From assembly GCA_041652815.1 (NCBI GenBank), contig JBAZGN010000001.1, positions 182,315-246,314 of the forward strand: a DNA stretch of 64,000 nt, written 5' to 3'. The position numbers and the translations under genes were made by a program. This stretch comes from Candidatus Omnitrophota bacterium. GTDB taxonomy: Bacteria > Omnitrophota > Gorgyraeia > Duberdicusellales > 4484-171. Shown here piece by piece: positions 8,024 through 59,081 of the stretch. The notes beneath the pieces are model-generated. The model had not been told where the DNA came from. It was given only the letters and a program-made list of their open reading frames with translations, and did not search any database. Each line of letters begins with the position of its first letter. The first letter of the stretch is position 1.

Positions 8024-9184
8024 TTGACTATTGCATCGCTCTGCTTTATTGTAAATACAATGGAAGAAAAATTTGCCATAGCGTCCAGCGAAAAGAGAGG
8101 CGAAGAAGCTGCCAAAGAGCTTTCTTTAAAAATAAAGTCCGTTTTTCCTAAGGCCGTCAAGGACATATTTTTATTTTTTACGCCTCAATATAACCCGCAC
8201 GAAGCCTTAAAAACTATAAATTTTACTTTAAAGCCCCGGAAGATAATTGGCCTGCAAAGCCCGTTTCTTAATTTTGAAGACCGGATACTGGAAGAAGGCA
8301 TGGTTGCTTTTGCCATAAATAAAGAGAATACAGAGTTTACGGAAGTTTTTATAAAAGAAGATTCGACGCAAAAAATAGAATCAGAGCTTCGGATGTTTTT
8401 GAAAAAATATTCCCATGAAAAAGAAGTTATTTTTTCTTTCTTATCGCATAATTTTAATTATCGTAATTACCTGCGCGGGCTGGAGCTTGCAATAGGAAAA
8501 TCTTTTAACGTCTTTGGGGGAGGCTACATTAGAAAATATGCCACGAAGAATTATCAGATAGTAAATAATACGGTAACCGAAGGCCTGGTTAACATAATCG
8601 GCGGCGGCATACAAGAAACATCGTTAAGCATCGCCGGGTTTATCCCTTTGGGCAAGCCTTTTACAATCACAAAAGTTATGGCGCAAGAAAGCATAATAAT
8701 GGAAATAAACGGCAGGCCGGCCATAAATATATACAGGGATTATCTGGAAGATAAATTCAATACTTTCATAAAAAATTATCTTTTCTCGCTATATCCGCTT
8801 GGCGTCTATTATAATGACGATATACATTTAATAAACGTTATCGAATGTTTAAAAGACGGCTCTCTCGCCTGCATTGGGAATCTTAAGGAAGGCGTAAAGG
8901 GGCATATAATGTTTTTCCATCCACAAGCCCTGCTTGATGAGCTTAAGAAAAAACTTGGATTCATAAAGAGCCATGGAGAAGGTTTGGTATTTATGGTAAA
9001 CTCTATGTTGAGAAAGCGGGTATTGCGGGAATACGCATACGAAGAGAGCCGCGTTATCAAGCAGCTGCTCGGGGATAAATTCAAAATAATAGGCATATAT
9101 GCTGATTACTCTTTTTTCTCTGAAGCAGAGAGAAGAGAAATAAACCTTGAAGCCGGAAACATATTAATGACGTTATGGAAATGA
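8024..9184 (+). CDS. Putative FIST-type sensory domain protein (FIST_N + FIST_C); true start probably ATG at 8060
   Basis: About 375 aa, cytoplasmic, with no catalytic motifs. Conserved-looking blocks (FFTPQYNPHEAL...IIGLQSP, NVFGGGYI, GIYADYSF) resemble FIST sensors. It overlaps the downstream histidine kinase gene by 10 nt, an arrangement common for FIST-HK pairs. The 8024 start is a TTG; the MEEKFAIASS methionine at 8060 is the more plausible start. Confidence 0.45.
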   Translation: MTIASLCFIVNTMEEKFAIASSEKRGEEAAKELSLKIKSVFPKAVKDIFLFFTPQYNPHEALKTINFTLKPRKIIGLQSPFLNFEDRILEEGMVAFAINKENTEFTEVFIKEDSTQKIESELRMFLKKYSHEKEVIFSFLSHNFNYRNYLRGLELAIGKSFNVFGGGYIRKYATKNYQIVNNTVTEGLVNIIGGGIQETSLSIAGFIPLGKPFTITKVMAQESIIMEINGRPAINIYRDYLEDKFNTFIKNYLFSLYPLGVYYNDDIHLINVIECLKDGSLACIGNLKEGVKGHIMFFHPQALLDELKKKLGFIKSHGEGLVFMVNSMLRKRVLREYAYEESRVIKQLLGDKFKIIGIYADYSFFSEAERREINLEAGNILMTLWK

Positions 9185-10653
9185 ACACAACATTATCCTC
9201 TATGGGGCCCATTATAGGTTCGGCGATTTTTCTATGTTTCGTGATAGTTTTTCTTGTTATTTATATTATAAATAAGCTGCAATTTATAAATATCCTCAAA
9301 AGAAATATCGAACACCTTAATAAAACAATCCGGGAGCTTGATTATCAGGCAAAACTAATAATCAAGGGCGATATGGAGCTGAAGCTCTACCAGGAAGAAG
9401 TGGAAGATAAACTCAACAAGCTTACTCTTCTTAAAAATCTCATAATATCTTCACTGCACATTCTGGATAAAGAAAACCTTTTTTCGCAAGTAGACGATAA
9501 AACGATAAATGACCTGGGTTTTAAAAAGGGCCTGATACTCACAATGGAAGGCGAGGTAAAATTAAGTGTCGGCTTTGAACCCAAGGAAATAGATGCACTA
9601 AAAGATTTCGTAAAATATAAAAAGAACTTCATCCAGGCCATACCATTAATTTCATCCGATACCGAAGCCGGTGCGGAATTGATAACTACCCTTCAAACAA
9701 AAGATTTTCTAATCGCTCCGATAAAAGCGCGGGAGAAAATATATGCCGTGTTTGTTTTGGCCAACCTGGTTATGCCAACGGATGTCAGGCGCGCGGAAAA
9801 AGAAATTTTTTCAATTATCTGTATGTATCTTGGCCAGTGCCTCGACAACATTCAGCTTTTTGAAGAAATCTATAATGCAAAAGATGAGCTTGAGAAGAAA
9901 GTAAAAGAAAGAACCAATGAATTAGTTAAGAGCTTACGCGAGATAGAAGCAATTAGCCGGGCAAAATCGGATTTTATCTCCGGCGTATCGCATGAATTGC
10001 GCACCCCTCTTACTTCAGTAAAAGGTTTCTCTTCGCTCTTGGTTGCTGAAAAATTCGGAAAGCTCCCTGAAGAAGCCAAGAAGCGCCTTGAGACAATAGA
10101 TGAAAATGTTGATAAGCTTGTAAATATGGTCAATACTCTTTTGGACATCGCGCGTATCGAATCGGGGAAAACAGAAGTAAAAATAGCTCCTGCCGATATC
10201 GCAAAATCAATCAGGGATGCGGGCGAATTCCTCTCCCCTCAAATGCAGGCAAAAGCAATAAAATTAGTTTTGGATACACCGGAGACACTTTTGGTCTACA
10301 TGGATAAAAACCTTATTGACCAGGTATTTATAAACCTGCTTGGAAATGCCATTAAATTCACGCCCAACGGCGGGCAGATAAAAATAAGTGTTAAGGCAAC
10401 CGGCAATCAAGCTGTTGTTGCCGTAGCAGATACAGGCTATGGAATAGAGAAAGAAAATTTGGAAAAGATTTTTCAGGAATTCTTTAGGGCAGATAATGCA
10501 GTAAATGCTATGGCAAAAGGAACGGGGCTTGGCCTATCTCTTGTAAAAAGAATTATCGAAATACACAAAGAAAAAATATGGGTCGAATCAGAAATTGGAA
10601 AAGGCAGCACCTTTTATTTCACGCTTAAATTGGCGAAGGAAAAGAACATTTAA
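9175..10653 (+). CDS. Sensor histidine kinase (N-terminal TM helix, coiled coil, GAF-like region, HisKA, HATPase_c)
   Basis: H-box SHELRTPLTSVKGF, N-box LLGNAIKFTP, G-boxes DTGYGI and GTGLGLSLVKRIIE, and an N-terminal hydrophobic helix. Confidence 0.85.
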   Translation: MEMNTTLSSMGPIIGSAIFLCFVIVFLVIYIINKLQFINILKRNIEHLNKTIRELDYQAKLIIKGDMELKLYQEEVEDKLNKLTLLKNLIISSLHILDKENLFSQVDDKTINDLGFKKGLILTMEGEVKLSVGFEPKEIDALKDFVKYKKNFIQAIPLISSDTEAGAELITTLQTKDFLIAPIKAREKIYAVFVLANLVMPTDVRRAEKEIFSIICMYLGQCLDNIQLFEEIYNAKDELEKKVKERTNELVKSLREIEAISRAKSDFISGVSHELRTPLTSVKGFSSLLVAEKFGKLPEEAKKRLETIDENVDKLVNMVNTLLDIARIESGKTEVKIAPADIAKSIRDAGEFLSPQMQAKAIKLVLDTPETLLVYMDKNLIDQVFINLLGNAIKFTPNGGQIKISVKATGNQAVVAVADTGYGIEKENLEKIFQEFFRADNAVNAMAKGTGLGLSLVKRIIEIHKEKIWVESEIGKGSTFYFTLKLAKEKNI

Positions 10654-10724: not shown

Positions 10725-11663
10725 ATGGTTAAATTAAAAATAATGGTCGTTGACGACGACCCTGATATTTTGGAACTTCTCAAGGCAACCCTGGAAGAAG
10801 AATACGAAGTTATCAGTGCCGCCCTTGGCAACGAAGCTATAGAAAAATTAAAAAGCCAGGTGCCTGACCTATTGGTTTTAGATTATATGCTTCCTGACAT
10901 TCAGGGGCCGCAAATATGTAATATTTTAAGAAAAGACCCGCTGCTTGTGCATTTGCCCGTGCTGATGCTGACCGGCAAAGGAGAAATCGAAGATAAGGTA
11001 AAAGGGCTTGAGTCAGGTGTTGATGATTATATGGTAAAGCCTTTTTCACCGCAGGAGCTTACTGCGAGAGTGCGAATGCTTATACGGCGGTCGAATATCA
11101 ATTTAGACGCAAACCCTTTAACGCGGCTTCCCGGAAACGTTTCAATAAACCGCGAACTGGATGAAAAGATAAAAAGCAAAGAAAAGTTTGCCGCGCTTTA
11201 TATCGATTTGGATAACTTCAAAGCGGTAAATGACTACTACGGCTTTGAAAGAGGCGACGAGGTAATAAAAGAAACCGCCCGCATTTTAATCGATGCCATT
11301 TCAAAAGAAGGCACCACAAAAGATTTCATCGGCCATATCGGCGGAGATGATTTCTTTATCATAACCTCTCCGGAAAAGGGCGAAGAAATAGCAAAAAAAA
11401 TAATAAGTGATTTCGATAAAGTATCTCCCAAATTTTTTGATGAAAAAGACAGGATAAAAGGCTTTATCGAAACAAAGGGGCGTGACAACGAAATACATAA
11501 ATTCGGATTTATTACTATCTCTGTGGGAATAATAACCAACTTATACAGAGAGTTCACGCATACCGCACAAATAAGCTCGCTCGGAGCAGAAGTTAAGGGG
11601 TTTGCCAAAAAATTCGCTCAAAGTAAATATATTTTCGACAAAAGAACCGAGCAGAAATACTGA
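10725..11663 (+). CDS. Response regulator: REC domain fused to a GGDEF-family domain with non-canonical GGDDF signature
   Basis: REC motifs (MVVDDDPDILELL, phospho-acceptor in LVLDYMLPD, MLTGKG, KPF). GGDEF-domain motifs are NPLTRLPGN, DLDNFKAVNDYYG, RGDEVIK, then GGDDF where GG(D/E)EF is expected. Confidence 0.8.
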   Translation: MVKLKIMVVDDDPDILELLKATLEEEYEVISAALGNEAIEKLKSQVPDLLVLDYMLPDIQGPQICNILRKDPLLVHLPVLMLTGKGEIEDKVKGLESGVDDYMVKPFSPQELTARVRMLIRRSNINLDANPLTRLPGNVSINRELDEKIKSKEKFAALYIDLDNFKAVNDYYGFERGDEVIKETARILIDAISKEGTTKDFIGHIGGDDFFIITSPEKGEEIAKKIISDFDKVSPKFFDEKDRIKGFIETKGRDNEIHKFGFITISVGIITNLYREFTHTAQISSLGAEVKGFAKKFAQSKYIFDKRTEQKY

Positions 11664-43740: not shown

Positions 43741-45033
43741 CTATTTCTCATCTGCGGGATTTCCGGAATGAAAATGTGTATATGCACATTTATATATTAA
43801 ACCTAAAAGCAACCAAAACAAAAAAGTTACTGCTGGGATATGGAAATTGAAATCAATAAAGCTATGTATTACCGTGCCGGCTATGCCGCAAAAACCGCCG
43901 ATAACTATATTTTTAACAAAAGGATCGTGCCGGTTGCTTGTTTCGTTTAAAATAGCTTTAAATAAACTAAAGAAAAAAACCAATAACAAAACTGCGCTAA
44001 TTAAACCGGCCTCAAAAAGAAACTGGAGATAGTCATTATGTAAATAATCGTAATAAGCTACGAACTTACTTCTTTGATATAGAGTAAATATATCACTAAA
44101 GTTACCTAACCCGACACCAAAAATGGGAAAGTTTTTAAAAATTGTAAATGCATCAGCAACAATTGTCCATCTATCCATTAAGCTATTCCACACGAAACTC
44201 ATTCTGTTACTAAGGGGGCCAAAGCCTGATATGGAGACAAGTACCAAAGCAAAGATAATCACCCCCATAATTATCCAATGTTGGTTTGTTTGCACTTTTT
44301 CTTTGGCTAACAAACAAGACATCATAATTAGTGCTATTATCAAACTGATCGATCCTCCTCTGGACAGCGAAAGAAAAACGCTTGCGCAGATTATAGCTGC
44401 TATAAAGCTAAAAATAATTTTCTTATATTTGTTCTTACAGTATAGGGCATAGGCGACGGAAACGTTTGAAATCATTATCATATATGCGGCAAAATGGTTT
44501 TTATTCCCAAAGGTGCTGAAGGAATAGGAACTTTGCCTTTGGAGAACGAAATATTTCTTTACAACTCCGTAAAGTGCCAGAGATAATCCAATAAAGATAA
44601 GAATCAATAGCATCCGCTCAAATTGTTTTTTTGTTGTAAAAATATTCAATACACAGATAAAAATAAGGAAAAAAGATACAAATTTTACTAGCTCCTCCAG
44701 CGTCACAATAGAATAGAACGATAATTGGCTAAAATTAGTAAAATAACCTCCGTATTGCTGTTTTAAAAGATAAGTGTTTGGGGAAATTATTTTTAAGAAA
44801 AAGACAGGAAAATATATTATTTGCAGGAACGTAATAGATAGAAAGATTATAAAAAGATTTATCTTGGCAGGATAAATTAATTTTTGATTATATTTTTTTG
44901 TTAGAAAAAGCAGGAACAAAAATATAAATAATGCAACCACCTCAATTACAAAAAGAGGTATTTTTTCAACTGACCCGTAAAAAAATGGACTGAGGATTGT
45001 AAGGAAAATTAAAAATAACTCTAAGGCTTTCAC
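43741..45033 (-). CDS. O-antigen ligase / Wzy_C-family polytopic membrane protein
   Basis: Ten or more TM helices and the Wzy_C signature YDYLHNDYLQFLFEAGLISAV in a periplasmic loop. Confidence 0.65.
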   Translation of the reverse strand: MKALELFLIFLTILSPFFYGSVEKIPLFVIEVVALFIFLFLLFLTKKYNQKLIYPAKINLFIIFLSITFLQIIYFPVFFLKIISPNTYLLKQQYGGYFTNFSQLSFYSIVTLEELVKFVSFFLIFICVLNIFTTKKQFERMLLILIFIGLSLALYGVVKKYFVLQRQSSYSFSTFGNKNHFAAYMIMISNVSVAYALYCKNKYKKIIFSFIAAIICASVFLSLSRGGSISLIIALIMMSCLLAKEKVQTNQHWIIMGVIIFALVLVSISGFGPLSNRMSFVWNSLMDRWTIVADAFTIFKNFPIFGVGLGNFSDIFTLYQRSKFVAYYDYLHNDYLQFLFEAGLISAVLLLVFFFSLFKAILNETSNRHDPFVKNIVIGGFCGIAGTVIHSFIDFNFHIPAVTFLFWLLLGLIYKCAYTHFHSGNPADEK

Positions 45034-45034
45034 G

Positions 45035-46867
45035 CTATTTCTCTGTTGGATAATAATGGTAGTAATAGTAGCGGTCTTGCCCTATCTTCGCGTCATTTAA
45101 AACTGTGCCTATTATCTTTACACGTGTATCAATGACCTTTTTAGCCTCCAGGATATACCCTATTTGTGTATGCCCTGATCTTATAACAAATATTATGCCA
45201 TCACATTTATCTCCCAAAATTAAAGCTTCTGATACATTCAATATTGGCGTTGAGTCTATGATTATTCTCTGAAATTTTTTTTCTAATTCTCGCAAAATCG
45301 TAGGTAATTTTTCAGAACTGAGCAATTCAGTGGGGTTAGGAGTATATGGGCCGGCTGGCAGCATAGATAGGTTAGGTATAGAAGTAGGGGTTATAGCTTC
45401 ATCGATGGAACACATTCCGGCCAGTAAATTGCTTAACCCATTCTTTGGTTTTATTCCGAAACTTTGGTGTAGATTTCCTTTACGCATATCAGCATCAATT
45501 AACAAAGTTGGCTCTTTTGTTTGAGCAAATATTATGGAAAGGTTTGAAGAAACAAAACTTTTGCCTTCTTGAGGCACAGAACTAGTAACAACAACTGTCC
45601 GCAAAGGTTTATCCTGCGGAAAAGAAAAAAGCAACGAAACTTTAAGGTTTCTAAAAACTTCAGCCAGTCTTGAACGAGGTTCGTTGAAAGAAAATAGAAA
45701 ATTGTTGTCGTTCTTTTTCTTCGATTCTCTTCTTAGGGAAGGTATGTAACCTAAAAATGGTAATTTTACAAAAAATTCAACCTCATCGGAAGTCTTTAAA
45801 GTTGAGTCTAATCTCTCTATCAGAAAAGCTACAGACACACTTAACAAAAAACCTAAGATAATGGCAATTGGGATATCTTTCTGTGGACTAGGTCTTATGG
45901 GGCTTTTTGGTTCTTCTGCCGGATCAAGCAACCTTATGTTTGAAAGTGTTAATTCCTTAGAAACATCCAATTCTTTTGCTCTTTTTAAAAAATCATCATA
46001 GAGAGAATTATAGGTGGTAACTTTTCTTTTAAGAATACCATATTCGGCCATTTTTTCCTGTAGAGCAAGCCTTTTATTTATTTCCTCGCTTAATTTTTCA
46101 TCAACCGTTCTTAGCTTGGTAACAAGAGAAATCATCTCAGGATGTTTCTCTTTATATCTCTGCGATGCCTCAGCAACTTCCTTTTCTAATTGTGCCTTTT
46201 GTTCTTTTAAACTTTCTATCAATGCTTCTGATTTTGTTTCAATATCTGGGATAGCAACTATCCGATTATCTTTTATGAAAACATTTAACGCTTTTTCTGC
46301 TTCACTTAAGCTTTTAAGTGTGTCGTTTAACTGGCTTTCTAAAAAAGTTATGCCATACTTGGCAGTTCCTACTTTTCGTTCAATATCCTGATATATAAAT
46401 TCCCGCACCCATGCATTTGCAATTGCCGTAATCTTTATAGGATCTTTTCCCGTAACCGAAATTGTTGCAGTAGAGCCCTGACGTGCAGGTTCAATTTTTA
46501 CCATAGAAAGAAGCTGGCCTGATGGGTCCTTTGAGTTGATGAATTCTGGATCTTTATCTAAACCTAAATTTTTAATAATCCGCTCTGCCAGAGAACGCGA
46601 CATAGCAATATTGATTTGGGTTTGATAATACTCTTTTTCTGTGGTTTTTTGTTCATAAACATCTTCGATTTTACCTGCAATTTTTGTCTTTTCTACCTCT
46701 AAAACAATTGAAGCCTGAGCACGGTATATTTTTGGAGAAGAAAAATCATAAAATATAACAGTTCCTGTTATAACTATTAAAACTGTAGATATAAATAAAG
46801 TATGTTTTTTCAACAAGTCAAAATAATCTTTTATTGTTAATTCTTTTACTTCCGCTGGAGGTATCAT
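45035..46867 (-). CDS. Polysaccharide co-polymerase / tyrosine autokinase (Wzc-like: Wzz domain + CpsD-type ATPase + C-terminal Tyr cluster)
   Basis: Two TM helices flanking a coiled-coil periplasmic domain; Walker A SSVPQEGKSFVSSNL; C-terminal RYYYYHYYPTEK. Confidence 0.8.
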   Translation of the reverse strand: MIPPAEVKELTIKDYFDLLKKHTLFISTVLIVITGTVIFYDFSSPKIYRAQASIVLEVEKTKIAGKIEDVYEQKTTEKEYYQTQINIAMSRSLAERIIKNLGLDKDPEFINSKDPSGQLLSMVKIEPARQGSTATISVTGKDPIKITAIANAWVREFIYQDIERKVGTAKYGITFLESQLNDTLKSLSEAEKALNVFIKDNRIVAIPDIETKSEALIESLKEQKAQLEKEVAEASQRYKEKHPEMISLVTKLRTVDEKLSEEINKRLALQEKMAEYGILKRKVTTYNSLYDDFLKRAKELDVSKELTLSNIRLLDPAEEPKSPIRPSPQKDIPIAIILGFLLSVSVAFLIERLDSTLKTSDEVEFFVKLPFLGYIPSLRRESKKKNDNNFLFSFNEPRSRLAEVFRNLKVSLLFSFPQDKPLRTVVVTSSVPQEGKSFVSSNLSIIFAQTKEPTLLIDADMRKGNLHQSFGIKPKNGLSNLLAGMCSIDEAITPTSIPNLSMLPAGPYTPNPTELLSSEKLPTILRELEKKFQRIIIDSTPILNVSEALILGDKCDGIIFVIRSGHTQIGYILEAKKVIDTRVKIIGTVLNDAKIGQDRYYYYHYYPTEK

Positions 46868-46924
46868 ATTTTTTAATTATCTAAAATTATAGCAAGCAAT
46901 CTCAAGCTTTGGTTGTTAAAACCC

Positions 46925-47773
46925 TTAAAAGAAAGACTCTGGAACAGAGATTATATCATTTTCTTTTAATTCCACATCCCTTGATTTATCACCGCTTTTA
47001 AGAATATGCGCAATAGGCACATTAAATGTTTCTTTTTTGTCTTGGCCAGGTGCTCTTCTTATCACTTTAACTGCATTCTGATCTGCAATGTCAGTGAACC
47101 CCCCAGCTAAAGCTATGGCTTCAATGGCCGTCAAACCTTTACTATACTTGTAACTCCCAGGCTTTCGTACCTGGCCTAAGACTGCTATGTCACCATATCC
47201 TTTCACAATTATTCTATCCAAGGGTTGTAATAAAAAATCTCTACCATGTTTGTTAAAATCTACTATATATTCTTTCTCTTCATTGCCAACTTTACGTATA
47301 ATCTTTATGTTTGTCAAATTGGCATTTTGCTTTGCGCCATCGGCAAGCGCTAAGGCTTCCAAAAGAGATAAGTTGCCTATTAATTCATAGCTGCCTTCGC
47401 TGTTTATTGCTCCGATAATAAAAAATTTAGCATATTCTTTTATAAAAATATTTACTTGCGGATTAACAAAATAATCTTTCTTGAGAAGATTTTCTATTTT
47501 AGCAGTTGCCTCTTTTGTGGTTAAATTTCCAATAATAATCTCTCCTATAAATGGATAAATTATCTTTCCTTCCTCGGACACCTTAACCGTTTTAGTCAAA
47601 TTGGGCTCTCCGTATACTGAAATTTCGATGGTATCCCCAGGCTTTATACGATAAACATAATTACCATCTTCCGAGGCAACAGCCTGCTTATCAACTTCTT
47701 TATTTGCCTGAGGATAAGCCATAAAAATGATAATAGAAAAAGTTATTAATAGAAATATTTTTTTTATCATCAA
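46925..47773 (-). CDS. Polysaccharide export protein (Wza-like, Poly_export + SLBB domains)
   Basis: Signal peptide; YRIKPGDTIEISVYGEPNL is the Poly_export motif; tandem SLBB-like repeats. Confidence 0.7.
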   Translation of the reverse strand: MMIKKIFLLITFSIIIFMAYPQANKEVDKQAVASEDGNYVYRIKPGDTIEISVYGEPNLTKTVKVSEEGKIIYPFIGEIIIGNLTTKEATAKIENLLKKDYFVNPQVNIFIKEYAKFFIIGAINSEGSYELIGNLSLLEALALADGAKQNANLTNIKIIRKVGNEEKEYIVDFNKHGRDFLLQPLDRIIVKGYGDIAVLGQVRKPGSYKYSKGLTAIEAIALAGGFTDIADQNAVKVIRRAPGQDKKETFNVPIAHILKSGDKSRDVELKENDIISVPESFF

Positions 47774-49398
47774 AACTCCGAATTTACGCTTAAGCTAATT
47801 GTGTTACCTTTAAATTCCTGCAGTTTTGTTTTCGATGTTCTGTCTTCAAAAGTATATTTTAAACCAAATAGTAACCATTTTCTGAATCTATATTCTGGAT
47901 TAAATGATACTAAAAGATAATTATCGCGCGTTTGGTAGTCTGAACCTCTTTGATAATAGGAAACATCTCCATTTAATCTTATTTTTTTAAGAAAAGGCGG
48001 GAGATAACTGCACCCCAAAGAAATTCCTTGATATTTTGTTATATTCTCAGCAAGCAAGTTAATATCCCCCAACCCCTGTACTACGTTCAAACGATAATTC
48101 AAACGCGGGGAAGCCTTATATGTTAAATTTGCTGCGATAGTTTTCCCATTTAAGTCTTTGACGCTCTTCCTTTTGTTAGAACTATAACCTCCTTTAATTG
48201 TGCCTTCGAGCTTTTTAAAAATTTTTCCTTTTAAACCCACAATATATTTATCATAAGCAAAGTTTTGAGCTATATTTTTGTCATAATCTAACCACCCATG
48301 AGCGTATTCTACAAAAATCTTTGTTTTTGGTAGAATTTTTAAAGAGTTCCTTAAAGCAATTACATTACGGATATGGTTTGATGGCTTATATTCATCGCTC
48401 ACATAACTATACAGGCCTCTGTTATATTGTATATCAGTTTCAAGCTTGTTGAAATTAATTTTGAAGTCTTGTCCCATTTCATAAATCCAAGAATCAACAA
48501 ACCTCTGTACTTCTTGATTACCCACGTCGCTAGCAGTACCCCTCGTCCGCATTACAGATGCAGACGTAATAAAACCAAACTTACCCAGTCCATATTTAAC
48601 GAACCCTTTTCCGTATGGATTTGTGTGATCATTCTGGTCTTCAGTTGCATAGCGTAAAATCTGTAATCCTGCATTTAAATATAAATCAAATTTTTTTTGT
48701 GATGTTGACCGCTTGAATTCAAAGCCAGGATATAACTTTGTTACATAACTATTAACCGGGTCGGTTTTTGTCTGATACAAATTATTCGTAAATTCCCCTA
48801 TTCCGATTATATAAGGATGTATGTTTTTCAGCGTAGCCTTAAGGCGATTACTTTTTATGTCTCGTTTTTCTACCAACGTTTTATTTTTTGTTTCGTTTTT
48901 TAACCTATTTATTTTAGATAAAGAAATGTTTTCTCCCTGGGTCTTTTGCGGAATTTTTGAAAAAGACAACTTTGTTCCATAAGACGGTTTGCTTTCTTTA
49001 GCTGTTATCGCTTTAACTGAAAATATTTGATTGTTTATCGCTTCTTTTTCTTTAACTGTTTTTTTTGTAAGTTTTTGTATGTGGGGTAAGTCGTTTGAAT
49101 TTTCTTGTTTTTTCCCAGTATGTTTTATTCCTCCAAGACCTTGCTTTGAAGAAACTTTAGGTGTTGATAAAATTTTTTTTTGCTGCGTTATTTTTTTCAT
49201 TGAAGATGCTATTACTTTGGCTCTGCTAGTTTTTTCTTGTTTTTGTATACTTATTGTTGTATCTTCTTCCCGGGCCGATTTATCGTTCCGTTCTGTGTAA
49301 AAATCAAGAGTATAGGAAACAAGCTCTTTCCGTGACAATTCTGCATAAACCGAGTTGAACATTAGCAAATTTACGCAAAAAAATAAAACTATCTTCAC
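47770..49398 (-). CDS. Outer-membrane beta-barrel protein of the export module
   Basis: Signal peptide, a K/S/T-rich linker, alternating-polarity strands, and a C-terminal aromatic (SVNSEF). Confidence 0.5.
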   Translation of the reverse strand: MKIVLFFCVNLLMFNSVYAELSRKELVSYTLDFYTERNDKSAREEDTTISIQKQEKTSRAKVIASSMKKITQQKKILSTPKVSSKQGLGGIKHTGKKQENSNDLPHIQKLTKKTVKEKEAINNQIFSVKAITAKESKPSYGTKLSFSKIPQKTQGENISLSKINRLKNETKNKTLVEKRDIKSNRLKATLKNIHPYIIGIGEFTNNLYQTKTDPVNSYVTKLYPGFEFKRSTSQKKFDLYLNAGLQILRYATEDQNDHTNPYGKGFVKYGLGKFGFITSASVMRTRGTASDVGNQEVQRFVDSWIYEMGQDFKINFNKLETDIQYNRGLYSYVSDEYKPSNHIRNVIALRNSLKILPKTKIFVEYAHGWLDYDKNIAQNFAYDKYIVGLKGKIFKKLEGTIKGGYSSNKRKSVKDLNGKTIAANLTYKASPRLNYRLNVVQGLGDINLLAENITKYQGISLGCSYLPPFLKKIRLNGDVSYYQRGSDYQTRDNYLLVSFNPEYRFRKWLLFGLKYTFEDRTSKTKLQEFKGNTISLSVNSEF

Positions 49399-49414
49399 GT
49401 TTGCATTATATTGA

Positions 49415-49966
49415 TTAGTTATTTGTCCTTATTGTAATTAAACTTATGGCCATGGAGAAGAGTAGTAAGGTGTTAACGATATTCAACCATACTATTGCGC
49501 TAAAAAATATAGCAGGAATCAAGTTGAACTTTATCGATACTGCAATAATCCCGGCAATCACTCCTAAAAAAATAAAAATAGACGCAACAAACTTCATAAC
49601 ACCCTCCCTTGTTTTATCAAAGGTATTCGCTATCCTCTTATTTATAGTATTTTTGTAATCGTCTTTTAAATCCAAAAATTCAACAGCCACATCAAAACCG
49701 CCTATTTTCATGCTTTTTGAGCGCAAAACTCGCGCATTAACTTTAATGGCGTCAGGGGAAGAGGGAAAATTTATATTTAACTCTAATACACTTTTAGGTT
49801 TTATATATTCGGCTGAATGGAAAAGAACACCGCCGGCGCTGATATTACGCACAAAAGAAAGAACTCCTTCTTTATTCTTTTCATCGCCACATACCTTATA
49901 TTTAAGAAGGTGATAAGCCGTAAGCCTTAAAAACCGTCTTTTGTTTTTTGAAAATAAAATTGTCAT
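49415..49966 (-). CDS. Stand-alone PilZ-domain protein with C-terminal membrane anchor
   Basis: RRFLRL (RxxxR) and NISAGGVLF (D/NxSxGG), with two C-terminal TM helices. Confidence 0.6.
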   Translation of the reverse strand: MTILFSKNKRRFLRLTAYHLLKYKVCGDEKNKEGVLSFVRNISAGGVLFHSAEYIKPKSVLELNINFPSSPDAIKVNARVLRSKSMKIGGFDVAVEFLDLKDDYKNTINKRIANTFDKTREGVMKFVASIFIFLGVIAGIIAVSIKFNLIPAIFFSAIVWLNIVNTLLLFSMAISLITIRTNN

Positions 49967-51702
49967 TGCGCTTTATATCCTAATTTTAAGTCTATTTCTT
50001 TAAGATACCAAGAGGTTCGCCTAAATTTGGGTTGTAATGATTCTACTTTCATAAACTCTTTTCTTGCTTCTTCATAGTTTCCGAGGACAAAATAAATTAT
50101 TCCCAGGTTATAATAGGCTTCTGTGTAATTTGAGTTTAACGCTGTCGCTTTTTTTAAGCTATCCTTGGCCCCATTATAGTTACCTTGCGCCCATAACACA
50201 TATCCTAAATTATTATAAGCATAATTATATCTAGGATTAATATTCAGTGCTTTCCTGAAATAAATTCTCGCAAGATTATAATTTTTATTAAAAATATAAA
50301 GTGTCGCTAAATTATAATTAAAGATGTAGGAAGCAGGATAGATATTGATTGTTTTTCTATATTGCTCAATAGCCTCATCCACTTTATTAAGATTAAAATA
50401 TATGAAACCTAAATTGGCAGTTGCCTCGTAATCGCGGGGATTAATGTTTACGGCCTTTATACCTTCTGCTATTGCATCATCCGGTCTTTTTAAAAAATAA
50501 AAACATAAAGCTTTACCTATGTATGATGTGCTGTGTTTTGGATAAACACCAAGAGCTAAATCAAATTTTCCTAACGCATCTACATATTTTTGGTCCAAAG
50601 ACATTTTAAATCCTGTTTCAAGTAGCTGAAATCCTTCTTTACAATACTGCCAAGCCATATCAGGATTAATTTTATGTTCAATATAGGGGCTAAGATCTGA
50701 GAATGGTTCATTCTTTTTTATCTTAAGAAAAGCTTCTTGCGCTCTTGCGGGTTCTTTTAAATCATATAAATAAGCATATGCTGCGCGAAATTGTGAAAGC
50801 TGTGGTATTTCTAAAGATGGTTCAAGTTTAAAAAGCTCTTCAAACAAAGCTATCGCCTTATCTATCTGTCCAGATCTATACAAACAATCAGCTTCCTGGT
50901 AATAAGCAAACGATCGCCATTGCCCAGACAATTTATCTTTAATCTTGTTAAAAATTTCCGCTGATTTCTCAAACTCTTTTTTCGCCTTATAAAGAACGCC
51001 TAAAAAGAATTCTGCTTTTATCGTTTTATCGTTTTCTCGATTGAGCTCTATTGCCTTATTAAAATATTGTTCCGATAAATCCCAATCTTTTAGCAATAAA
51101 TATTGTTTAGCTATCTCTATATATTTATCCTGTAACTTTTCATCTTTGTATTTATGCAAATTTTTCTCAAGCTTCGCAATTCGAGATTTTAATAGGCCGA
51201 CATTGGCTGCCCTTTGACCCGGAAATAATTTTATAGCTATATCCTCGAGAAAAGAAAAAATAATGGGGCGGTTTTTTATTTCTTTATTAATAGCTTCTTT
51301 AATGAAATGTTTTATATCGCTAATTTGGGTGTCTGTTGAGATTTTTTCAGCAATCACAGCTGCAAAATCTATATTAGTAGCAGATGTTAGTTCGAACGTG
51401 TATCCTTTAGCTTGGATATTTTCTTTTAACCCCTGATCAATGATTAGCTGGGAAATTCCTACTTTTGCAGAAAAAGCAAGGTCAAAATCTCCCTTGACTA
51501 ATTCATCAAGGAAAGAATCGTCTAAAATAGACGTTAGTTTTTTTACGTCATTTAAAGTAGTTGCTTTATCTAAATCATTGAGGCATATTTTAAGATTAGC
51601 CAAAGATGCATCCAACAGATAATGGTTATAGCCTAGAAAAAAAATAAATGCAGCAAAAAAAGTAATAAATAATGGGACGAAATGACGAAATATTTTTTTC
51701 AT
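49963..51702 (-). CDS. Multi-TPR repeat protein with N-terminal TM helix
   Basis: Ten or more TPR units in the C-terminal half (AYYNLGIIYFVLGNYEEA...). Confidence 0.7.
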   Translation of the reverse strand: MKKIFRHFVPLFITFFAAFIFFLGYNHYLLDASLANLKICLNDLDKATTLNDVKKLTSILDDSFLDELVKGDFDLAFSAKVGISQLIIDQGLKENIQAKGYTFELTSATNIDFAAVIAEKISTDTQISDIKHFIKEAINKEIKNRPIIFSFLEDIAIKLFPGQRAANVGLLKSRIAKLEKNLHKYKDEKLQDKYIEIAKQYLLLKDWDLSEQYFNKAIELNRENDKTIKAEFFLGVLYKAKKEFEKSAEIFNKIKDKLSGQWRSFAYYQEADCLYRSGQIDKAIALFEELFKLEPSLEIPQLSQFRAAYAYLYDLKEPARAQEAFLKIKKNEPFSDLSPYIEHKINPDMAWQYCKEGFQLLETGFKMSLDQKYVDALGKFDLALGVYPKHSTSYIGKALCFYFLKRPDDAIAEGIKAVNINPRDYEATANLGFIYFNLNKVDEAIEQYRKTINIYPASYIFNYNLATLYIFNKNYNLARIYFRKALNINPRYNYAYNNLGYVLWAQGNYNGAKDSLKKATALNSNYTEAYYNLGIIYFVLGNYEEARKEFMKVESLQPKFRRTSWYLKEIDLKLGYKAQ

Positions 51703-51902
51703 TAATATTACTATATCATTGTTTTGTCTAGTGTCAATATAAAGAGTCTCGTTAAGCGAAATATTTATAATACTACTTACGGTAATTGGTTTTTTGTGCT
51801 TCTATGTTTAAAAATGAGTTTTATCTAAGGTAATCAAACAAAGATAAAATACAGTAACGATAACTATTCTTAAGTGCTTGTGTTCCAATATGTTATAATT
51901 CA

Positions 51903-51931
51903 TTGACAATAACGGCTTTTTATGGTATCTT
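51903..51931 (+). promoter_or_regulatory. Sigma70-like promoter TTGACA-N17-TATCTT for the small secreted protein gene
   Basis: TTGACA at 51903-51908 and TATCTT at 51926-51931. A strong SD (AAGGGAGGGAG) sits 5 nt before ATG 51950. Confidence 0.4.
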
Positions 51932-51949
51932 TAAAAGGGAGGGAGTAAC

Positions 51950-52174
51950 ATGAGTAATAAAATATTACTTGTAAGTTGTTTATTAGTGATGCCTTTCTGT
52001 GGATTTGCTCAGCCTGTTGCAGACACAAGCGCTAAAGATGATACAGCTTCTCCTACTGTCCAAACAGACGAAAGAGAAATATCGGAAGGCGAGGGAAAAG
52101 TTTTGAAAGATTTTGTTATTACTGCACCACAATTGCCATCCATCAAAACTACTGAAGAAAAAGAAAAGAAATAA
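51950..52174 (+). CDS. Small secreted acidic protein (74 aa, signal peptide), function unknown
   Basis: Signal peptide MSNKILLVSCLLVMPFCGFA/QP; strong RBS and candidate promoter. It is the only plus-strand gene in 30 kb. Confidence 0.45.
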   Translation: MSNKILLVSCLLVMPFCGFAQPVADTSAKDDTASPTVQTDEREISEGEGKVLKDFVITAPQLPSIKTTEEKEKK

Positions 52175-52181
52175 ATAATTA

Positions 52182-53498
52182 TCATATCGATTCAGCATCT
52201 TTTCTTTGATCTAAAACAAAACAACTACGTGCAAGTTTTTTTGCTTTCTTCTTAATTTCTGCAGCAATATTTGTAACTTCTGCATAGCTTGTTATAAGAC
52301 GATGTTCGTTGGTAACACCGGCCAAAGAGATAGTCATTATCGGAAATTCGTGTATTGCCCCATCGCGGCTTTGCGCTACGATAAATCCCCTTTCTAAATC
52401 TTCTGCATCATACAAAGAAAGGACTCGTTTGTCAAATTCTAAAGTGATATAATCTGCAATCAATTGGGCTTTATCGGGAGTTGTCAAGAGTATAAAATCG
52501 TCTCCGCCTTCATGACCGATAAAATCATTGTTATTACCTTTATTTTTTATAGCATCCTTAAACAATTGCCCTGTAAGTTTTATTGCATCATCTCCTTTTG
52601 CAATACCATACTTATCATTAAAAGCTTTAAAATTGTCTAAATCACAGTAAATTACCATGAATTTTTTATCTTCATTTATCCTTTTTTCGATTTCCTCACG
52701 TATGACTATATTACCGGGTAGTTTTGTTAATGGGTTTGCGTCTTCTGCCTTTGCTTTCATTTTCGCTAACTCTTCAGTCATAAAATTAAAAGTTCTGGCA
52801 AGCTGCTCCAGCTCATCATTCGTTGAAATATTAACCCTTAAATCCAAACGACCAGATGCAATAATTTTTGCGGCTGCATTAAAAACCTTTATCGGCACGA
52901 TGATTAATCGTGAAAAAAATATACCTAAAATAATATTTAAAAAAATAAATATTGCACCTATAGTAAATGCTGGTTGATAAACCTGCATATATGCACTGTG
53001 CATATCGCTTAGAGAAAAGGATAATTTAACTACATAATTATCGTTGTTGCTTCCTTTTAAGAAAACATATTTGAAAAAAAACTTAGCATTTTTATCGATA
53101 AATATTTCTTTCTCCGAAGTCACCCCTTTGTTTATTTTATCTACAACATAAATATCATCAAAATTGCCTTTCTGTCCTTGTAAAAAATTATTTGTTGAAA
53201 AAATAATTTTTGCTTCTTTATCTAATATGTAAGCCTGTGTTATTTCTTCCGATTCTTTTAGTTCTGTTAATTTTTTTTCTAAATAACTAAGCTGGTTTTC
53301 GGGAAGTAGATTAAAACCTATAATTTTTTCCCAAGTGTTTGTTAAAATTAACGAAACGATAGTTGCGCGGAAAGTATTAAACTTATTTATTATTTTTAAT
53401 TCATGGAAAAGTTGGACGCCAACGAATAATGTTATAGTTAATATAGTAAATGTTACAAGAAGGATAATGATTCTGTTTTTTAATGTCATGGTCCGCAT
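52182..53498 (-). CDS. Membrane sensor: periplasmic domain + HAMP + GGDEF-family domain with GGDDF signature
   Basis: Two TM helices flanking a ~150-aa extracytoplasmic domain, a HAMP linker (AAAKIIASGRLDLRV...LARTFNFMTEELAKMKA), then NPLTKLPGN, DLDNFKAFNDKYG and GGDDF. Confidence 0.75.
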   Translation of the reverse strand: MRTMTLKNRIIILLVTFTILTITLFVGVQLFHELKIINKFNTFRATIVSLILTNTWEKIIGFNLLPENQLSYLEKKLTELKESEEITQAYILDKEAKIIFSTNNFLQGQKGNFDDIYVVDKINKGVTSEKEIFIDKNAKFFFKYVFLKGSNNDNYVVKLSFSLSDMHSAYMQVYQPAFTIGAIFIFLNIILGIFFSRLIIVPIKVFNAAAKIIASGRLDLRVNISTNDELEQLARTFNFMTEELAKMKAKAEDANPLTKLPGNIVIREEIEKRINEDKKFMVIYCDLDNFKAFNDKYGIAKGDDAIKLTGQLFKDAIKNKGNNNDFIGHEGGDDFILLTTPDKAQLIADYITLEFDKRVLSLYDAEDLERGFIVAQSRDGAIHEFPIMTISLAGVTNEHRLITSYAEVTNIAAEIKKKAKKLARSCFVLDQRKDAESI

Positions 53499-53504
53499 AT
53501 GATG

Positions 53505-54641
53505 CTATTTAACATCTATTTTAATCGGATCAAAACTATTTTTTATTATTTTGAAAATTATGCCCAGCATATCTTTTGAAATATCGGGGGATTTTAAAAA
53601 TTCCCACAAGAGAGTCGTGTGGTTTTCAAAATCTCCCATTTTTTCTATTATATCAGTTTTTTTCTTGATAAAATTAAATATCTTTTCAATATCATTATCT
53701 GCTAACTTGGCAAAAATATTCCGCGCCTTTAAAGCTATGCCTATTTCTTTTCCGAACTTCTTCGTCCAAAGCGAATCGTAGTCGTTAAATCTCTCATTCA
53801 TGATACATTCGCAAAGTATTTCTGCAGCACGCATACCCATATATATTCCGCCGTATGTCAGCGGTTTTACCTGCGAAGCACTGTCGCCGACTAAAAATAA
53901 CCGTTCCTTAGATAATGAGTTAAAATGCGTTAAAGGAACAAGGCCGGCAAATTTTTCCAATATCTTACCCTTTAAGTTGATCTCCTTAACAAAATCAAGA
54001 AGATCCTGATAGGGATTTTTTGAAAGTACCCCCACACGAATAATTTCGGCTGATTCGGGTATAATCCAGTAAAAATATGGCCTTTTCACGTAAACTTCGA
54101 CCATATCGCTATAGCGGGGCCTAAGCTGCATACGAAACTGCACGCCTTTTAAATATTCCATATGATTGGGGCTGATAAAATCTCTAAGCGTAGATTTTGC
54201 TCCTTCGGCGGCAACTACAATATCAGCCTCTAAACATCCTTTGTCGGTTTCAATAAGATAGCTTTTATCTTTTTTTTCCAATCCCAGGAACCGATTGTCA
54301 AACATAATATCCAAGTTCTCTCCTAACTTTTTGTCAAATCTTTCTCTGTCGATAACATAGGCAACTTCTTTTCTTCTAAGAGGAATTTTATTCTTACCTA
54401 TATAAATAACTGCACCGTTAATGGTGTTAAGAATGCAATCTTGGGAAATAGGAATTTTTGTTTCTTCAAAAACTTTTTTACCAACCAATCCTGCGCAATG
54501 GACGGGTTTACCTATTTCCTTATGTTCTTCGATAAGCAAAGGCCGAATACCTTCTCTTTGTAAAAGTTGGCCAAGATAACAACCAATAGGGCCTGCGCCG
54601 ATAATAACCGTATTTTTCTGTTTTCTCATAATATAGAACAA
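53505..54641 (-). CDS. Geranylgeranyl-reductase-family FAD-dependent oxidoreductase
   Basis: N-terminal FAD fold VIIGAGPIGCYLGQLLQREG...CAGLV. Length and internal blocks resemble GGR/ChlP-type reductases. Confidence 0.6.
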   Translation of the reverse strand: MFYIMRKQKNTVIIGAGPIGCYLGQLLQREGIRPLLIEEHKEIGKPVHCAGLVGKKVFEETKIPISQDCILNTINGAVIYIGKNKIPLRRKEVAYVIDRERFDKKLGENLDIMFDNRFLGLEKKDKSYLIETDKGCLEADIVVAAEGAKSTLRDFISPNHMEYLKGVQFRMQLRPRYSDMVEVYVKRPYFYWIIPESAEIIRVGVLSKNPYQDLLDFVKEINLKGKILEKFAGLVPLTHFNSLSKERLFLVGDSASQVKPLTYGGIYMGMRAAEILCECIMNERFNDYDSLWTKKFGKEIGIALKARNIFAKLADNDIEKIFNFIKKKTDIIEKMGDFENHTTLLWEFLKSPDISKDMLGIIFKIIKNSFDPIKIDVK

Positions 54642-54658
54642 TGATTACGGAAATTTTT

Positions 54659-55306: not shown

Positions 55307-55485
55307 AAACCAAATTTCAAAAATTTATGCCTTAATATCTGTAACAAAAAATTTGCCAACATGTTTGTTCATCTGTTGATTTATCAGATTCAACATCCAA
55401 CAATGTTTCGGGAAATTTTTGATTAAACACAATTAGGAAATTGCGCTTTTTAACAAAAAACAATGGCTCCTTTATAAATTAATTT

Positions 55486-56643: not shown

Positions 56644-56729
56644 TTTCTTCTTTATTTTTAATCAAATGTTTTAAGGAAACAACTAAAGTTTTTGGGTTCC
56701 CCAGCGCAAATTTAGCTAAATTGATTATG

Positions 56730-59019: not shown

Positions 59020-59081
59020 TTTTGGCCTTTCCCTCTTTCAACGGATAGATTCATAATGCCCCCATCAACAAAGAGAATATT

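What the first reader, a model, noticed from the sequence alone, without database searches (positions are those of the whole stretch)
10725..11663. Two paralogous GGDEF-family proteins share the non-canonical signature GGDDF and an LPGN motif
The REC-fused regulator (10725-11663) and the HAMP-linked membrane sensor (52182-53498) both carry NPLT(R/K)LPGN ... DLDNFKA(V/F)ND ... GGDDF. Conservation of the same deviation in two differently wired paralogs argues for a functional subfamily rather than decay. The fourth-position Glu normally helps coordinate Mg2+, so these may be slow or altered-specificity cyclases (the Hypr GGDEF precedent for cGAMP), or inactive receptors. No RxxD I-site is evident.
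Basis: partly seen in the sequence, partly recalled or inferred. Interest (0 to 1): 0.55.

Follow-up and report, generated by a model that had tools for sequence, protein, structure and literature searches.

The report
Conserved GGDDF clade of diguanylate cyclases
Two signalling proteins of an uncultured Omnitrophota bacterium belong to a large, widespread branch of the c-di-GMP-making GGDEF enzyme family in which the textbook motif is always GGDDF; they are most likely working cyclases, so the odd motif marks a lineage and is not decay.

Summary
ORF 10725-11663 (+) is a REC-fused protein and ORF 52182-53498 (-) is a TM-HAMP protein. Both carry NPLT(R/K)LPGN, DLDNFKA(V/F)ND and GGDDF, and their output domains are 46% identical (E 2e-48).

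The deviation defines a clade:
- 505 of 509 retrieved domain instances have Asp at motif position 4.
- It always comes with PLTxLPGN, GH(I/V/E)GGDDF (His replaces the canonical Arg), a longer conserved hairpin (Y..ED...G.I....R.G) and a C-terminal S.Y..D.R.
- The clade has at least 765 clusters at 50% identity and more than 600 genome hits across a dozen or more phyla.
- Clade domains score 150-270 bits against the clade profile. Canonical GGDEF domains in the same proteins score 15-41 bits.

The metal, guanine and phosphate positions are conserved, and both window proteins have the canonical Asp at the base-specificity site, so they are not Hypr-type. Clade members are fused to EAL, MshEN and HD-GYP domains. 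W2 sits in an exopolysaccharide cluster with an intact PilZ receptor. W1 ends a conserved FIST-kinase-regulator cassette.

Best reading: both are active, GTP-specific c-di-GMP synthases without an I-site. One published precedent exists: Geobacter GSU1937, a GGDDF enzyme shown to be active, which is very probably in this clade. No activity was tested here.

The parts
8024..9184 (+). FIST-domain sensor protein, first gene of the FIST-kinase-regulator cassette
   Evidence: Pfam FIST N and FIST_C. It overlaps the kinase gene by 10 nt. A FIST ORF lies in the same position upstream in 17 fetched clade loci, from Omnitrophota and Planctomycetia.
9175..10653 (+). Membrane histidine kinase, presumed cognate kinase of W1
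   Evidence: Pfam HisKA and HATPase_c. One N-terminal hydrophobic segment. The same gene order is seen in genome CP070797.
10725..11663 (+). W1: response regulator with REC domain, helical linker and GGDDF-clade GGDEF domain
   Evidence: ORF. Pfam REC 6-117 and GGDEF 131-239. REC residues D10, D11, D53, T83 and K105 are present. AF2 model pLDDT 94.9. Top fold matches are WspR, PleD and DgcR.
11106..11648 (+). W1 catalytic domain (aa 128-308), including NPLTRLPGN (11112-11138) and GGDDF (11340-11354)
   Evidence: Clade invariants, W1 numbering: D161 F165 K166 D170 Y172 H204 G206 G207 D208 D209 R253 K291 K295. Nearly invariant (at least 90%): D163 N169 G177 D200 S300 D305 R307. D178 is the base-specificity position; it is Asp in 118 of 137 representatives.
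52182..53498 (-). W2: membrane sensor with two TM segments, an extracytoplasmic region of about 140 aa, HAMP, and a GGDDF-clade domain
   Evidence: ORF. Pfam HAMP 194-244 and GGDEF 256-348. Hydrophobic segments at about 6-32 and 173-195. GGDDF at nt 52494-52508. The domain is 46% identical to W1.
49963..51702 (-). TPR-repeat protein, downstream of W2 on the same strand
   Evidence: Pfam TPR families.
49415..49966 (-). PilZ-domain membrane protein, the likely c-di-GMP receptor of the locus
   Evidence: Pfam PilZ 5.4e-10. The RRFLR (RxxxR) and NISAGG (D/NxSxxG) motifs are intact, and the C-terminus has hydrophobic segments.
43741..61534 (-). Wzx/Wzy-type exopolysaccharide gene cluster that contains W2 and the PilZ gene
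   Evidence: Precomputed Pfam on the identical contig L085: Glycos_transf_1, Glyco_transf_9, Methyltransf_21, Wzy_C, radical SAM, Bac_transf, FAD oxidoreductase, [W2], TPR, PilZ, BBP2_2 porin, Poly_export, Wzz/GNVR/AAA_31, Wzy_C. Partly re-checked in the window.

Best explanation
W1 and W2 are catalytically competent, GTP-specific diguanylate cyclases. They belong to a distinct, ancient and widespread branch of the GGDEF family in which the fourth motif residue is always Asp.

W1 mechanism (steps inferred). The FIST protein and the membrane kinase sense a signal. The kinase phosphorylates REC Asp53. The helical linker (aa 109-128) then dimerises or shifts register, as in WspR and DgcR. This brings two GTP-Mg-loaded GGDDF domains together to form c-di-GMP.

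W2 mechanism (steps inferred). An extracytoplasmic signal passes through HAMP to the same kind of catalytic domain. The c-di-GMP produced is read by the PilZ membrane protein encoded two genes downstream, which tunes synthesis or export of the polysaccharide made by the surrounding cluster.

Neither protein has an RxxD I-site, so canonical product inhibition is not expected.

Shown here: clade membership, conservation, fold and gene context. Inferred: enzyme activity, product identity and the regulatory target.
For: 1. GGDDF is under selection. All 240 close homologues and 147 of 148 representatives at 50% clustering carry GGDD[FY]. Of 509 domain instances, 505 have Asp at position 4. A single third-position nucleotide change would give Glu.

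2. The deviation is one of a set of co-varying clade features: PLTxLPGN, GH.GGDDF, a longer hairpin with invariant R253, and a C-terminal S.Y..D.R. The only two R.GG[DE]EF instances are canonical second domains in multidomain proteins. Clade domains score 150-270 bits against the clade profile, and canonical domains in the same proteins score 15-41 bits.

3. Catalytic positions are invariant or nearly so. These are the equivalents of PleD D327 and D329 (D161, D163), K332 (K166), N335 (N169), D344 (D178) and G368/G369 (G206, G207), plus two Lys on the last helix spaced like K442/R446 (K291, K295).

4. Fold: AF2 pLDDT 94.9. The best PDB matches are the REC-GGDEF cyclases WspR, PleD and DgcR.

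5. Link to c-di-GMP: of 91 longer representatives, 18 are fused to EAL domains with an intact EAL motif, 6 to MshEN and 1 to HD-GYP. W2 lies two genes from an intact PilZ gene inside an EPS cluster. Two W2 orthologues also lie next to EPS genes.

6. Precedent: the GGDDF domain of Geobacter GSU1937, tested as a fusion, made cGAMP and c-di-GMP in vivo, and the GADDF mutant was dead (PMC8835794). Geobacteraceae TM-HAMP proteins with GGDDF plus Ser fall inside this clade.

7. W1 orthologues are 69-96% identical across more than 120 Omnitrophota clusters, and the FIST-HK-RR cassette recurs in 17 loci.
Against: No enzymatic test was done for any Asp-type member of the clade.

The canonical Arg two residues before the GG (PleD R366) and R446 are replaced, by His and probably by Ser or Lys. 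Consequences for catalysis are unknown.

Published mutagenesis and census work generally treats motifs other than GG[DE]EF as inactive. The GGDDF-EAL protein PA3258 shows no cyclase phenotype (cited in PMC8835794).

GSU1937 was active only as one of four fusion constructs, and the wild-type protein was inconclusive in E. coli. I could not fetch its sequence, so its membership in the clade is inferred from Geobacteraceae orthologues.

Pfam GGDEF and PDB cyclases align only to the N-terminal 60% or so of the domain.
Confidence: 0.7

Rival explanations
1. The GGDDF domains are catalytically inactive. They would act as nucleotide-binding (GTP or c-di-GMP) sensor or receptor domains, or as protein-interaction modules, like degenerate GGDEF domains that regulate a partner EAL domain.
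For: Non-GG[DE]EF motifs are usually inactive, and PA3258 (GGDDF-EAL) shows no cyclase phenotype (PMC8835794). Of 91 longer clade representatives, 18 are fused to EAL domains that look active, an arrangement in which GGDEF-like domains are often regulatory. The canonical Arg before the GG is lost.
Against: Every residue needed for metal, base and phosphate binding, and both Gly, are invariant or nearly invariant across many phyla. Receptor-type degenerate domains normally lose these residues. Most members (REC-only, HAMP-only) have no other output domain. There is no I-site to bind c-di-GMP. A GGDDF domain from Geobacter was active in vivo and was killed by GADDF.
Confidence: 0.12
2. They are altered-specificity cyclases, Hypr-like or otherwise, that make cGAMP, c-di-AMP or a mixed product instead of c-di-GMP.
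For: The only tested GGDDF enzyme, GSU1937, makes cGAMP. The clade contains Ser (10 of 137) and Asn (9 of 137) variants at the specificity position. The changed fourth residue could alter the chemistry.
Against: W1 and W2, and 118 of 137 representatives, carry the canonical Asp together with the Asn that reads guanine. Ser is confined mainly to Geobacteraceae-type TM-HAMP proteins. A canonical PilZ receptor is encoded next to W2, and the clade is fused to EAL and MshEN domains, both c-di-GMP-specific partners.
Confidence: 0.1
3. They are Cas10- or mCpol-like GGDD palm cyclases. In that case they would make cyclic oligonucleotides or linear products, and the GGDEF resemblance would be only ancestral.
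For: Cas10 palm domains use GGDD. There is a weak Pfam Cas10-Cmr2_palm2 match (E 0.02, 15.4 bits against a 27-bit cutoff) for W1. One representative reaches E 3.3e-5. Cmr2 chains appear at E about 0.8 in the profile search of PDB.
Against: All of these matches are below threshold. Canonical diguanylate cyclases match at E 1e-12, and the fold search is led by WspR, PleD and DgcR. The PLTxLP, DxDxFKxxND and YGxxxGD motifs are GGDEF-specific. The architectures (REC, HAMP, EAL) and the context are those of c-di-GMP signalling. No CRISPR or CARF genes are nearby.
Confidence: 0.03

Closest known systems
Geobacter sulfurreducens GSU1937 (TM-HAMP 'Hypr GGDDF' cyclase; PMC8835794)
   Same: It has the GGDDF motif, no EAL or HD-GYP partner domain, and a TM-HAMP architecture like W2. 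Geobacteraceae proteins matching its description carry the full clade signature: PLTRLPGN, GH(I/V)GGDDF and the hairpin motif. It is the only GGDDF enzyme with demonstrated in vivo activity.
   Different: GSU1937 has Ser at the base-specificity site and makes cGAMP as well as c-di-GMP. W1 and W2 have the canonical Asp. GSU1937's own sequence could not be fetched, so shared clade membership is inferred from orthologues.
WspR (3BRE), DgcR (6ZXB/6ZXM) and PleD (1W25/2V0N): REC-GGDEF response-regulator cyclases
   Same: Same REC, helical linker and GGDEF architecture and fold as W1 (top Foldseek hits, E 1e-21 to 1e-24). The REC phospho-acceptor residues and the GGDEF metal and guanine residues are conserved.
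   Different: They have GG[DE]EF with Arg two residues before it, LxNR in place of LPGN, an RxxD I-site and a shorter beta-hairpin after helix 3. Sequence identity is only 19-24%. HMM alignments to W1 stop at about position 110 of 182.
YfiN/TpbB (DgcN): TM-HAMP-GGDEF membrane cyclase
   Same: Same overall architecture as W2. The NCBIfam DgcN/YfiN model matches W2 over aa 37-344, but far below its cutoff (57.6 against 325 bits).
   Different: It has a canonical GGDEF motif and an I-site, and W2 is not an orthologue. W2's sensor region has no recognised domain.
Cas10/Cmr2 palm domain (GGDD cyclase of type III CRISPR)
   Same: It has Asp at the equivalent of motif position 4 (GGDD), and it has the same palm fold superfamily.
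   Different: There is no significant sequence match. Substrate (ATP), products (cOA), partners and context all differ.

Membership tests
GGDEF domain family (Pfam PF00990; diguanylate cyclases) | Match to the family HMM above the curated cutoff | tested here: met
   W1 scores 63.6 bits and W2 55.3 bits against a 23.8-bit cutoff. The matches cover only profile positions 5-116 and 5-100 of 161.
GGDEF domain family (Pfam PF00990; diguanylate cyclases) | Palm-like GGDEF fold | tested here: met
   AF2 model pLDDT 94.9. Foldseek top hits are WspR, PleD and DgcR. Isolated GGDEF domains match at target-normalised TM-score (TMt) 0.68-0.75.
GGDEF domain family (Pfam PF00990; diguanylate cyclases) | Active-site motif GG[D/E]EF, with Glu at position 4 | tested here: not met
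   W1 D209 and W2 D334 are Asp. Asp occupies this position in 505 of 509 clade domain instances.
GGDEF domain family (Pfam PF00990; diguanylate cyclases) | Metal-binding Asp of the DxD strand, and Lys (PleD D327, K332) | tested here: met
   D161, D163 and K166 are invariant or nearly invariant. The PleD sequence used for mapping was recalled from memory.
GGDEF domain family (Pfam PF00990; diguanylate cyclases) | Guanine-reading Asn and Asp (PleD N335, D344) | tested here: met
   W1 N169/D178 and W2 N294/D303. Asp is present in 118 of 137 representatives.
GGDEF domain family (Pfam PF00990; diguanylate cyclases) | Phosphate-binding basic pair on the last helix (PleD K442, R446) | tested here: inconclusive
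   K291 and K295 are invariant and have the same i/i+4 spacing. MAFFT, however, puts R446 opposite S300 or K301. No model coordinates were available to settle this.
GGDEF domain family (Pfam PF00990; diguanylate cyclases) | c-di-GMP synthesis from GTP | not testable with these tools
   This needs an enzyme assay.
I-site-regulated diguanylate cyclases | RxxD motif five residues upstream of the GG | tested here: not met
   W1 has TTKD and W2 has NNND. The Arg position is variable across the clade.
GGDDF clade (GSU1937-like; defined here) | PLTxLPGN, GH(I/V/E)GGDDF, the hairpin Y..ED...G.I....R.G, and the C-terminal S.Y..D.R | tested here: met
   W1: NPLTRLPGN, GHIGGDDF, FFDEKDRIKGFIETKGRDN, QSKYIFDKR. 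W2: NPLTKLPGN, GHEGGDDF, LYDAEDLERGFIVAQSRDG, RSCFVLDQR.
GGDDF clade (GSU1937-like; defined here) | Sequence score clearly separated from canonical GGDEF domains | tested here: met
   W1 domain against the 150 best clade representatives: 158-279 bits. Against canonical PDB cyclases: at most 45 bits. Clade profile: 150-270 bits for clade domains against 15-41 bits for canonical ones.
Hypr GGDEF (cGAMP synthases, GacA type) | Ser in place of the guanine-specific Asp (GacA S348, PleD D344) | tested here: not met
   Both window proteins have Asp (RGDEV and KGDDA).
Cas10/Cmr2 palm cyclases | Significant match to Cas10 palm models or structures | tested here: not met
   PF22335 scores 15.4 bits against a 27-bit cutoff. 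Cmr2 chains appear at E about 0.8-0.9.
Two-component receiver (REC) domains | Acidic pocket, phospho-acceptor Asp, and conserved Thr and Lys | tested here: met
   D10, D11, D53, T83 and K105 are present. Pfam Response_reg E 6.9e-28.
PilZ c-di-GMP receptors (neighbour gene 49415-49966) | RxxxR and (D/N)xSxxG binding motifs | tested here: met
   RRFLR and NISAGG are present. Pfam PilZ 40 bits against a 22.5-bit cutoff.

The most novel reading that the evidence does not exclude
The GGDDF clade may be a mechanistically distinct, ancient solution to cyclic-dinucleotide synthesis. In it the Asp/His pair would replace the canonical Glu/Arg pair, and the extra conserved hairpin (R253) and C-terminal D.R would be part of the active site or dimer interface.

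On this reading the clade could differ from textbook cyclases in metal preference, kinetics or regulation. In lineages such as Omnitrophota it could be the main or only source of c-di-GMP. Censuses that call non-GG[DE]EF domains 'degenerate' would then systematically miss it.
Probability: 0.2. Interest if true: 0.7.

Novelty: new variant of a known kind. Interest (0 to 1): 0.45.

Why it matters
GGDEF domains are routinely sorted into 'active' and 'degenerate' by the GG[D/E]EF rule. This clade has hundreds of families in many phyla, including poorly known ones such as Omnitrophota. If it is active with GGDDF, those censuses under-count cyclases and mis-assign receptors.

It would also mean the palm active site tolerates an Asp/His solution. 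That bears on the disputed role of the fourth motif residue, which is either a metal ligand or a cross-dimer general base.

For this organism, it gives two concrete, testable circuits:
- a FIST-kinase-regulator cassette;
- a membrane sensor coupled to a PilZ receptor inside a polysaccharide export locus.

The finding is still an extension of a very well known enzyme family. One published precedent already shows that GGDDF can be active.

Tried and rejected
1. Fetching the GSU1937 sequence to test clade membership directly failed.
- The paper's supplement has no sequences or primers.
- The third homologue search returned Geoalkalibacter, Nitrospirota and Thermodesulfovibrionales names, but not G. 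sulfurreducens.
- The genome scan returned other Geobacter and Geobacteraceae MAGs.
- Membership is therefore inferred.

3. A Cas10 relationship was considered and rejected, because all matches are below threshold.

4. A modified I-site was considered. I checked whether the invariant hairpin Arg (R253) could correspond to PleD R390. By the recalled PleD numbering, R390 lies in the helix after GGEEF, where the clade has no conserved Arg, so this idea was dropped.

5. An Rfam scan of the window found no c-di-GMP or cGAMP riboswitch. It found only tRNA-Leu and 6S RNA.

6. A motif scan of all window ORFs found no canonical GG[DE]EF, EAL or HD-GYP protein. A 64 kb window is too small to say the genome lacks them.

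7. The positions of H204, R253 and D305/R307 relative to the active site could not be measured, because model coordinates are not returned.

Full report
**Observation**

W1 (10725-11663, +, 312 aa) and W2 (52182-53498, -, 438 aa) both contain NPLT(R/K)LPGN, DLDNFKA(V/F)ND and GGDDF.

Pfam calls W1 Response_reg plus GGDEF and W2 HAMP plus GGDEF. The GGDEF matches are above threshold but cover only the first 60-70% of the model. NCBIfam has no specific model for either protein.

The two output domains align without gaps over 180 residues at 46% identity, E 2e-48. They are true paralogues, and the shared motifs are not chance.

Source names on the close homologues place the window in Candidatus Omnitrophota. 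G+C content is 37%.

**Is GGDDF decay or a lineage signature?**

- All 240 proteins returned by two homologue searches carry GGDD[F/Y].
- An exhaustive HMMER search of 1.84 billion cluster representatives found 765 clusters (50% identity) at E <= 1e-30.
- The 150 best are 36-68% identical to W1. Nearly all of them have GGDDF and PLTxLPGN.
- With a clade profile, 505 of 509 domain instances have Asp at motif position 4.
- The only two R.GG[DE]EF instances are canonical second GGDEF domains in multidomain proteins. The residue two positions before the GG therefore co-varies with position 4: His with Asp, Arg with Glu.
- Clade domains score 150-270 bits against the clade profile. Canonical domains in the same proteins score 15-41 bits.
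- Canonical cyclases in the PDB reach at most about 50 bits and align only to profile positions 4-110 of 182.
- No clade member has a solved structure.

Asp to Glu needs only one third-position nucleotide change. The persistence of Asp over this much divergence therefore means selection for Asp specifically.

**Clade signature**

Invariant or nearly invariant positions (W1 numbering):

| Element | Residues |
|---|---|
| N-terminal motif | P131 L132 T133 . L135 P136 G137 (canonical cyclases have LxNR here) |
| DxD strand and following | D161 . D163 . F165 K166 . . N169 D170 . Y172 G173 . . . G177 (D178 follows: the specificity position, Asp in 118/137) |
| Before the GG | D200 F201 . G203 H204 . 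G206 G207 D208 D209 F210 |
| Hairpin, about 13 residues longer than in PleD | F230 D231 ... D242 ... G246 . I248 .... R253 |
| Last helix | K291, K295 |
| C-terminal tail | S300 . Y . . D305 . R307 |

Mapped onto PleD (sequence recalled from memory, so mapping is approximate outside the motifs), the following are all kept:
- the metal-binding Asp residues;
- Lys332;
- the guanine-reading Asn335 and Asp344;
- both Gly residues.

Arg366 becomes His. The RxxD Arg is not conserved. Arg446 is probably replaced.

**Specificity**

At the position that defines Hypr cGAMP synthases (Ser in place of PleD D344), 118 of 137 representatives have Asp, 10 have Ser and 9 have Asn. Both window proteins have Asp.

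The Ser forms are mostly TM-HAMP proteins of Geobacter, Geobacteraceae and Desulfuromonadaceae (FKSYNDRYGYIKAS).

This matches the published description of GSU1937. That protein is the only other G. sulfurreducens GGDEF protein with the Hypr Ser. It is TM-HAMP-linked and has GGDDF. Its GGDDF domain, in one of four GacA fusions, gave cGAMP and c-di-GMP signals in E. coli, and the signals were abolished by GADDF. The authors call it the first active GGDDF enzyme (PMC8835794).

I could not obtain the GSU1937 sequence, so its membership in the clade is a strong inference and not a test.

The same paper notes that the GGDDF-EAL protein PA3258 shows no cyclase phenotype. Bordetella DdpB (GGDDF plus ESL) is uncharacterised.

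**Distribution and architectures**

Hits came from Geobacter and Geomonas, Nitrospirota, Syntrophia, Omnitrophota, Clostridia, Halanaerobiales, Planctomycetia, Actinomycetota, Elusimicrobia, Acidobacteriota, Chloroflexota, Zixibacteria, Gemmatimonadota and Eremiobacterota.

Among 91 representatives of at least 330 aa:

| Fused domain | Members |
|---|---|
| REC | 48 |
| HAMP | 29 |
| EAL | 18 |
| CBS | 8 |
| MshEN | 6 |
| HD-GYP type | 1 |

The EAL motif is intact in most of the EAL fusions. EAL, HD-GYP and MshEN are dedicated c-di-GMP partners.

**Structure**

AlphaFold2 on an 80-sequence alignment gave a confident W1 model (pLDDT 94.9). It has a REC domain, a long helix (aa 109-128) and a GGDEF-like domain. 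The clade insertion forms a short helix (240-245) plus an extended hairpin (248-251 and 257-260) before the central strand 264-271.

Foldseek against the PDB is led by full-length WspR, PleD and DgcR (E 1e-21 to 5e-24). Isolated GGDEF domains match at target-normalised TM-score (TMt) 0.68-0.75.

The REC catalytic residues D10, D11, D53, T83 and K105 are present.

**Context**

W1 follows a FIST-domain gene (8024-9184) and a membrane HisKA/HATPase kinase (9175-10653), which overlap by 10 nt.
- The same FIST-HK-REC/GGDDF order occurs in a complete Omnitrophota genome.
- A FIST ORF lies in the same upstream position in 17 fetched loci, including two Planctomycetia.
- W1 orthologues are 69-96% identical over more than 120 clusters. 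That is unusually conserved for a signalling protein.

W2 lies inside a Wzx/Wzy-type polysaccharide cluster. The cluster encodes glycosyltransferases, Wzy_C, radical SAM, Bac_transf, an FAD oxidoreductase, W2, a TPR protein, PilZ, a BBP2 porin, Poly_export and Wzz/GNVR.
- The PilZ protein (49415-49966) has intact RxxxR (RRFLR) and (D/N)xSxxG (NISAGG) motifs and a membrane anchor.
- Two further W2 orthologues, truncated at contig ends, also adjoin polysaccharide genes.
- In the window, the only GGDEF-type domains are these two. No EAL or HD-GYP protein and no riboswitch was seen.

**Interpretation**

The most economical reading (confidence about 0.7) is that both proteins are active, GTP-specific diguanylate cyclases of a distinct GGDDF clade.
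- W1 is the output of a FIST-kinase phosphorelay.
- W2 is a membrane sensor that feeds a PilZ receptor controlling exopolysaccharide production.

Rivals:
- Inactive receptor (about 0.12). This is disfavoured by invariant catalytic residues, the lack of an I-site and the lack of any other output domain.
- Altered specificity (about 0.10). This is disfavoured by the canonical Asn/Asp pair and the c-di-GMP-specific partner domains.
- Cas10-like oligonucleotide cyclase (about 0.03). All matches are below threshold.

The role of the fourth motif residue is itself debated. Older structural work treats it as a metal ligand. Work cited in PMC8835794 treats it as a cross-dimer general base. How Asp plus His substitutes for Glu plus Arg is unknown and is the interesting mechanistic point.

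**Novelty and score**

The enzyme family is thoroughly known, and one GGDDF enzyme has already been reported active. This is therefore not a new kind of system.

Only six papers in the searchable library mention GGDDF at all. None of them describes any of the following:
- GGDDF as the hallmark of a large, ancient, cross-phylum clade;
- the co-varying active-site changes;
- the clade's own architecture repertoire.

I rate it a new variant of a known kind, with interest 0.45.

Noticed in passing
window 2-5887 (-) and 6133-7842 (-): A giant ORF of at least 1962 aa runs off the window start. It has an N-terminal TPS secretion domain and GLUG motifs. It sits next to a ShlB/FhaC-type POTRA/Omp85 transporter, so this is a two-partner secretion pair.
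   Followed up: partly
window 11755-12525 (+), 12582-12665 (+): A free-standing LAGLIDADG-type homing-endonuclease-like ORF (256 aa, Pfam LAGLIDADG_3) lies directly downstream of W1 and directly upstream of tRNA-Leu(GAG). It is not inside an intron or intein that I could see.
   Followed up: no
window 18509-18669 (-): A 6S/SsrS RNA match lies just above Rfam's gathering score (47.4 against 46.4 bits).
   Followed up: no
window 8024-11663 (+); loci L025, L027, L028, L033, L040, L042, L047, L051, L058, L060, L061, L064, L065, L066, L075, L076, L084: The three-gene cassette (FIST sensor, histidine kinase, REC-GGDDF regulator) recurs with the same order and spacing in many Omnitrophota and in two Planctomycetia MAGs. 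The regulator is 69-96% identical across more than 120 Omnitrophota clusters, which suggests a core function in the phylum.
   Followed up: partly
clade representatives P0262, P0278, P0293, P0309, P0358, P0366, P0373, P0377, P0379; loci L002, L007, L010, L030, L036: Some clade members have Asn at the base-specificity position instead of Asp or Ser. Among the 137 representatives scored at that position, 9 have Asn, 10 have Ser and 118 have Asp. The product specificity of the Asn forms is unknown to me.
   Followed up: no
representatives P0306, P0308, P0329, P0336, P0370, P0382 (750-790 aa): A recurrent architecture has a weak or degenerate N-terminal GGDEF-like domain (15-28 bits), then an EAL domain with an intact EAL motif, then a C-terminal GGDDF-clade domain. 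A second type is REC-GGDDF-(CBS)-EAL, which resembles the published descriptions of PA3258 and Bordetella DdpB.
   Followed up: partly
window 52494-52517 (-) and W2 orthologues: W2 and 71 other retrieved domain instances (72 with GHEGGDDF in all), presumably mostly its orthologues, have GHEGGDDF. Glu replaces the usual Ile or Val between His and the GG. This looks like a sub-signature of that group, whose closest members are Omnitrophota HAMP proteins.
   Followed up: no
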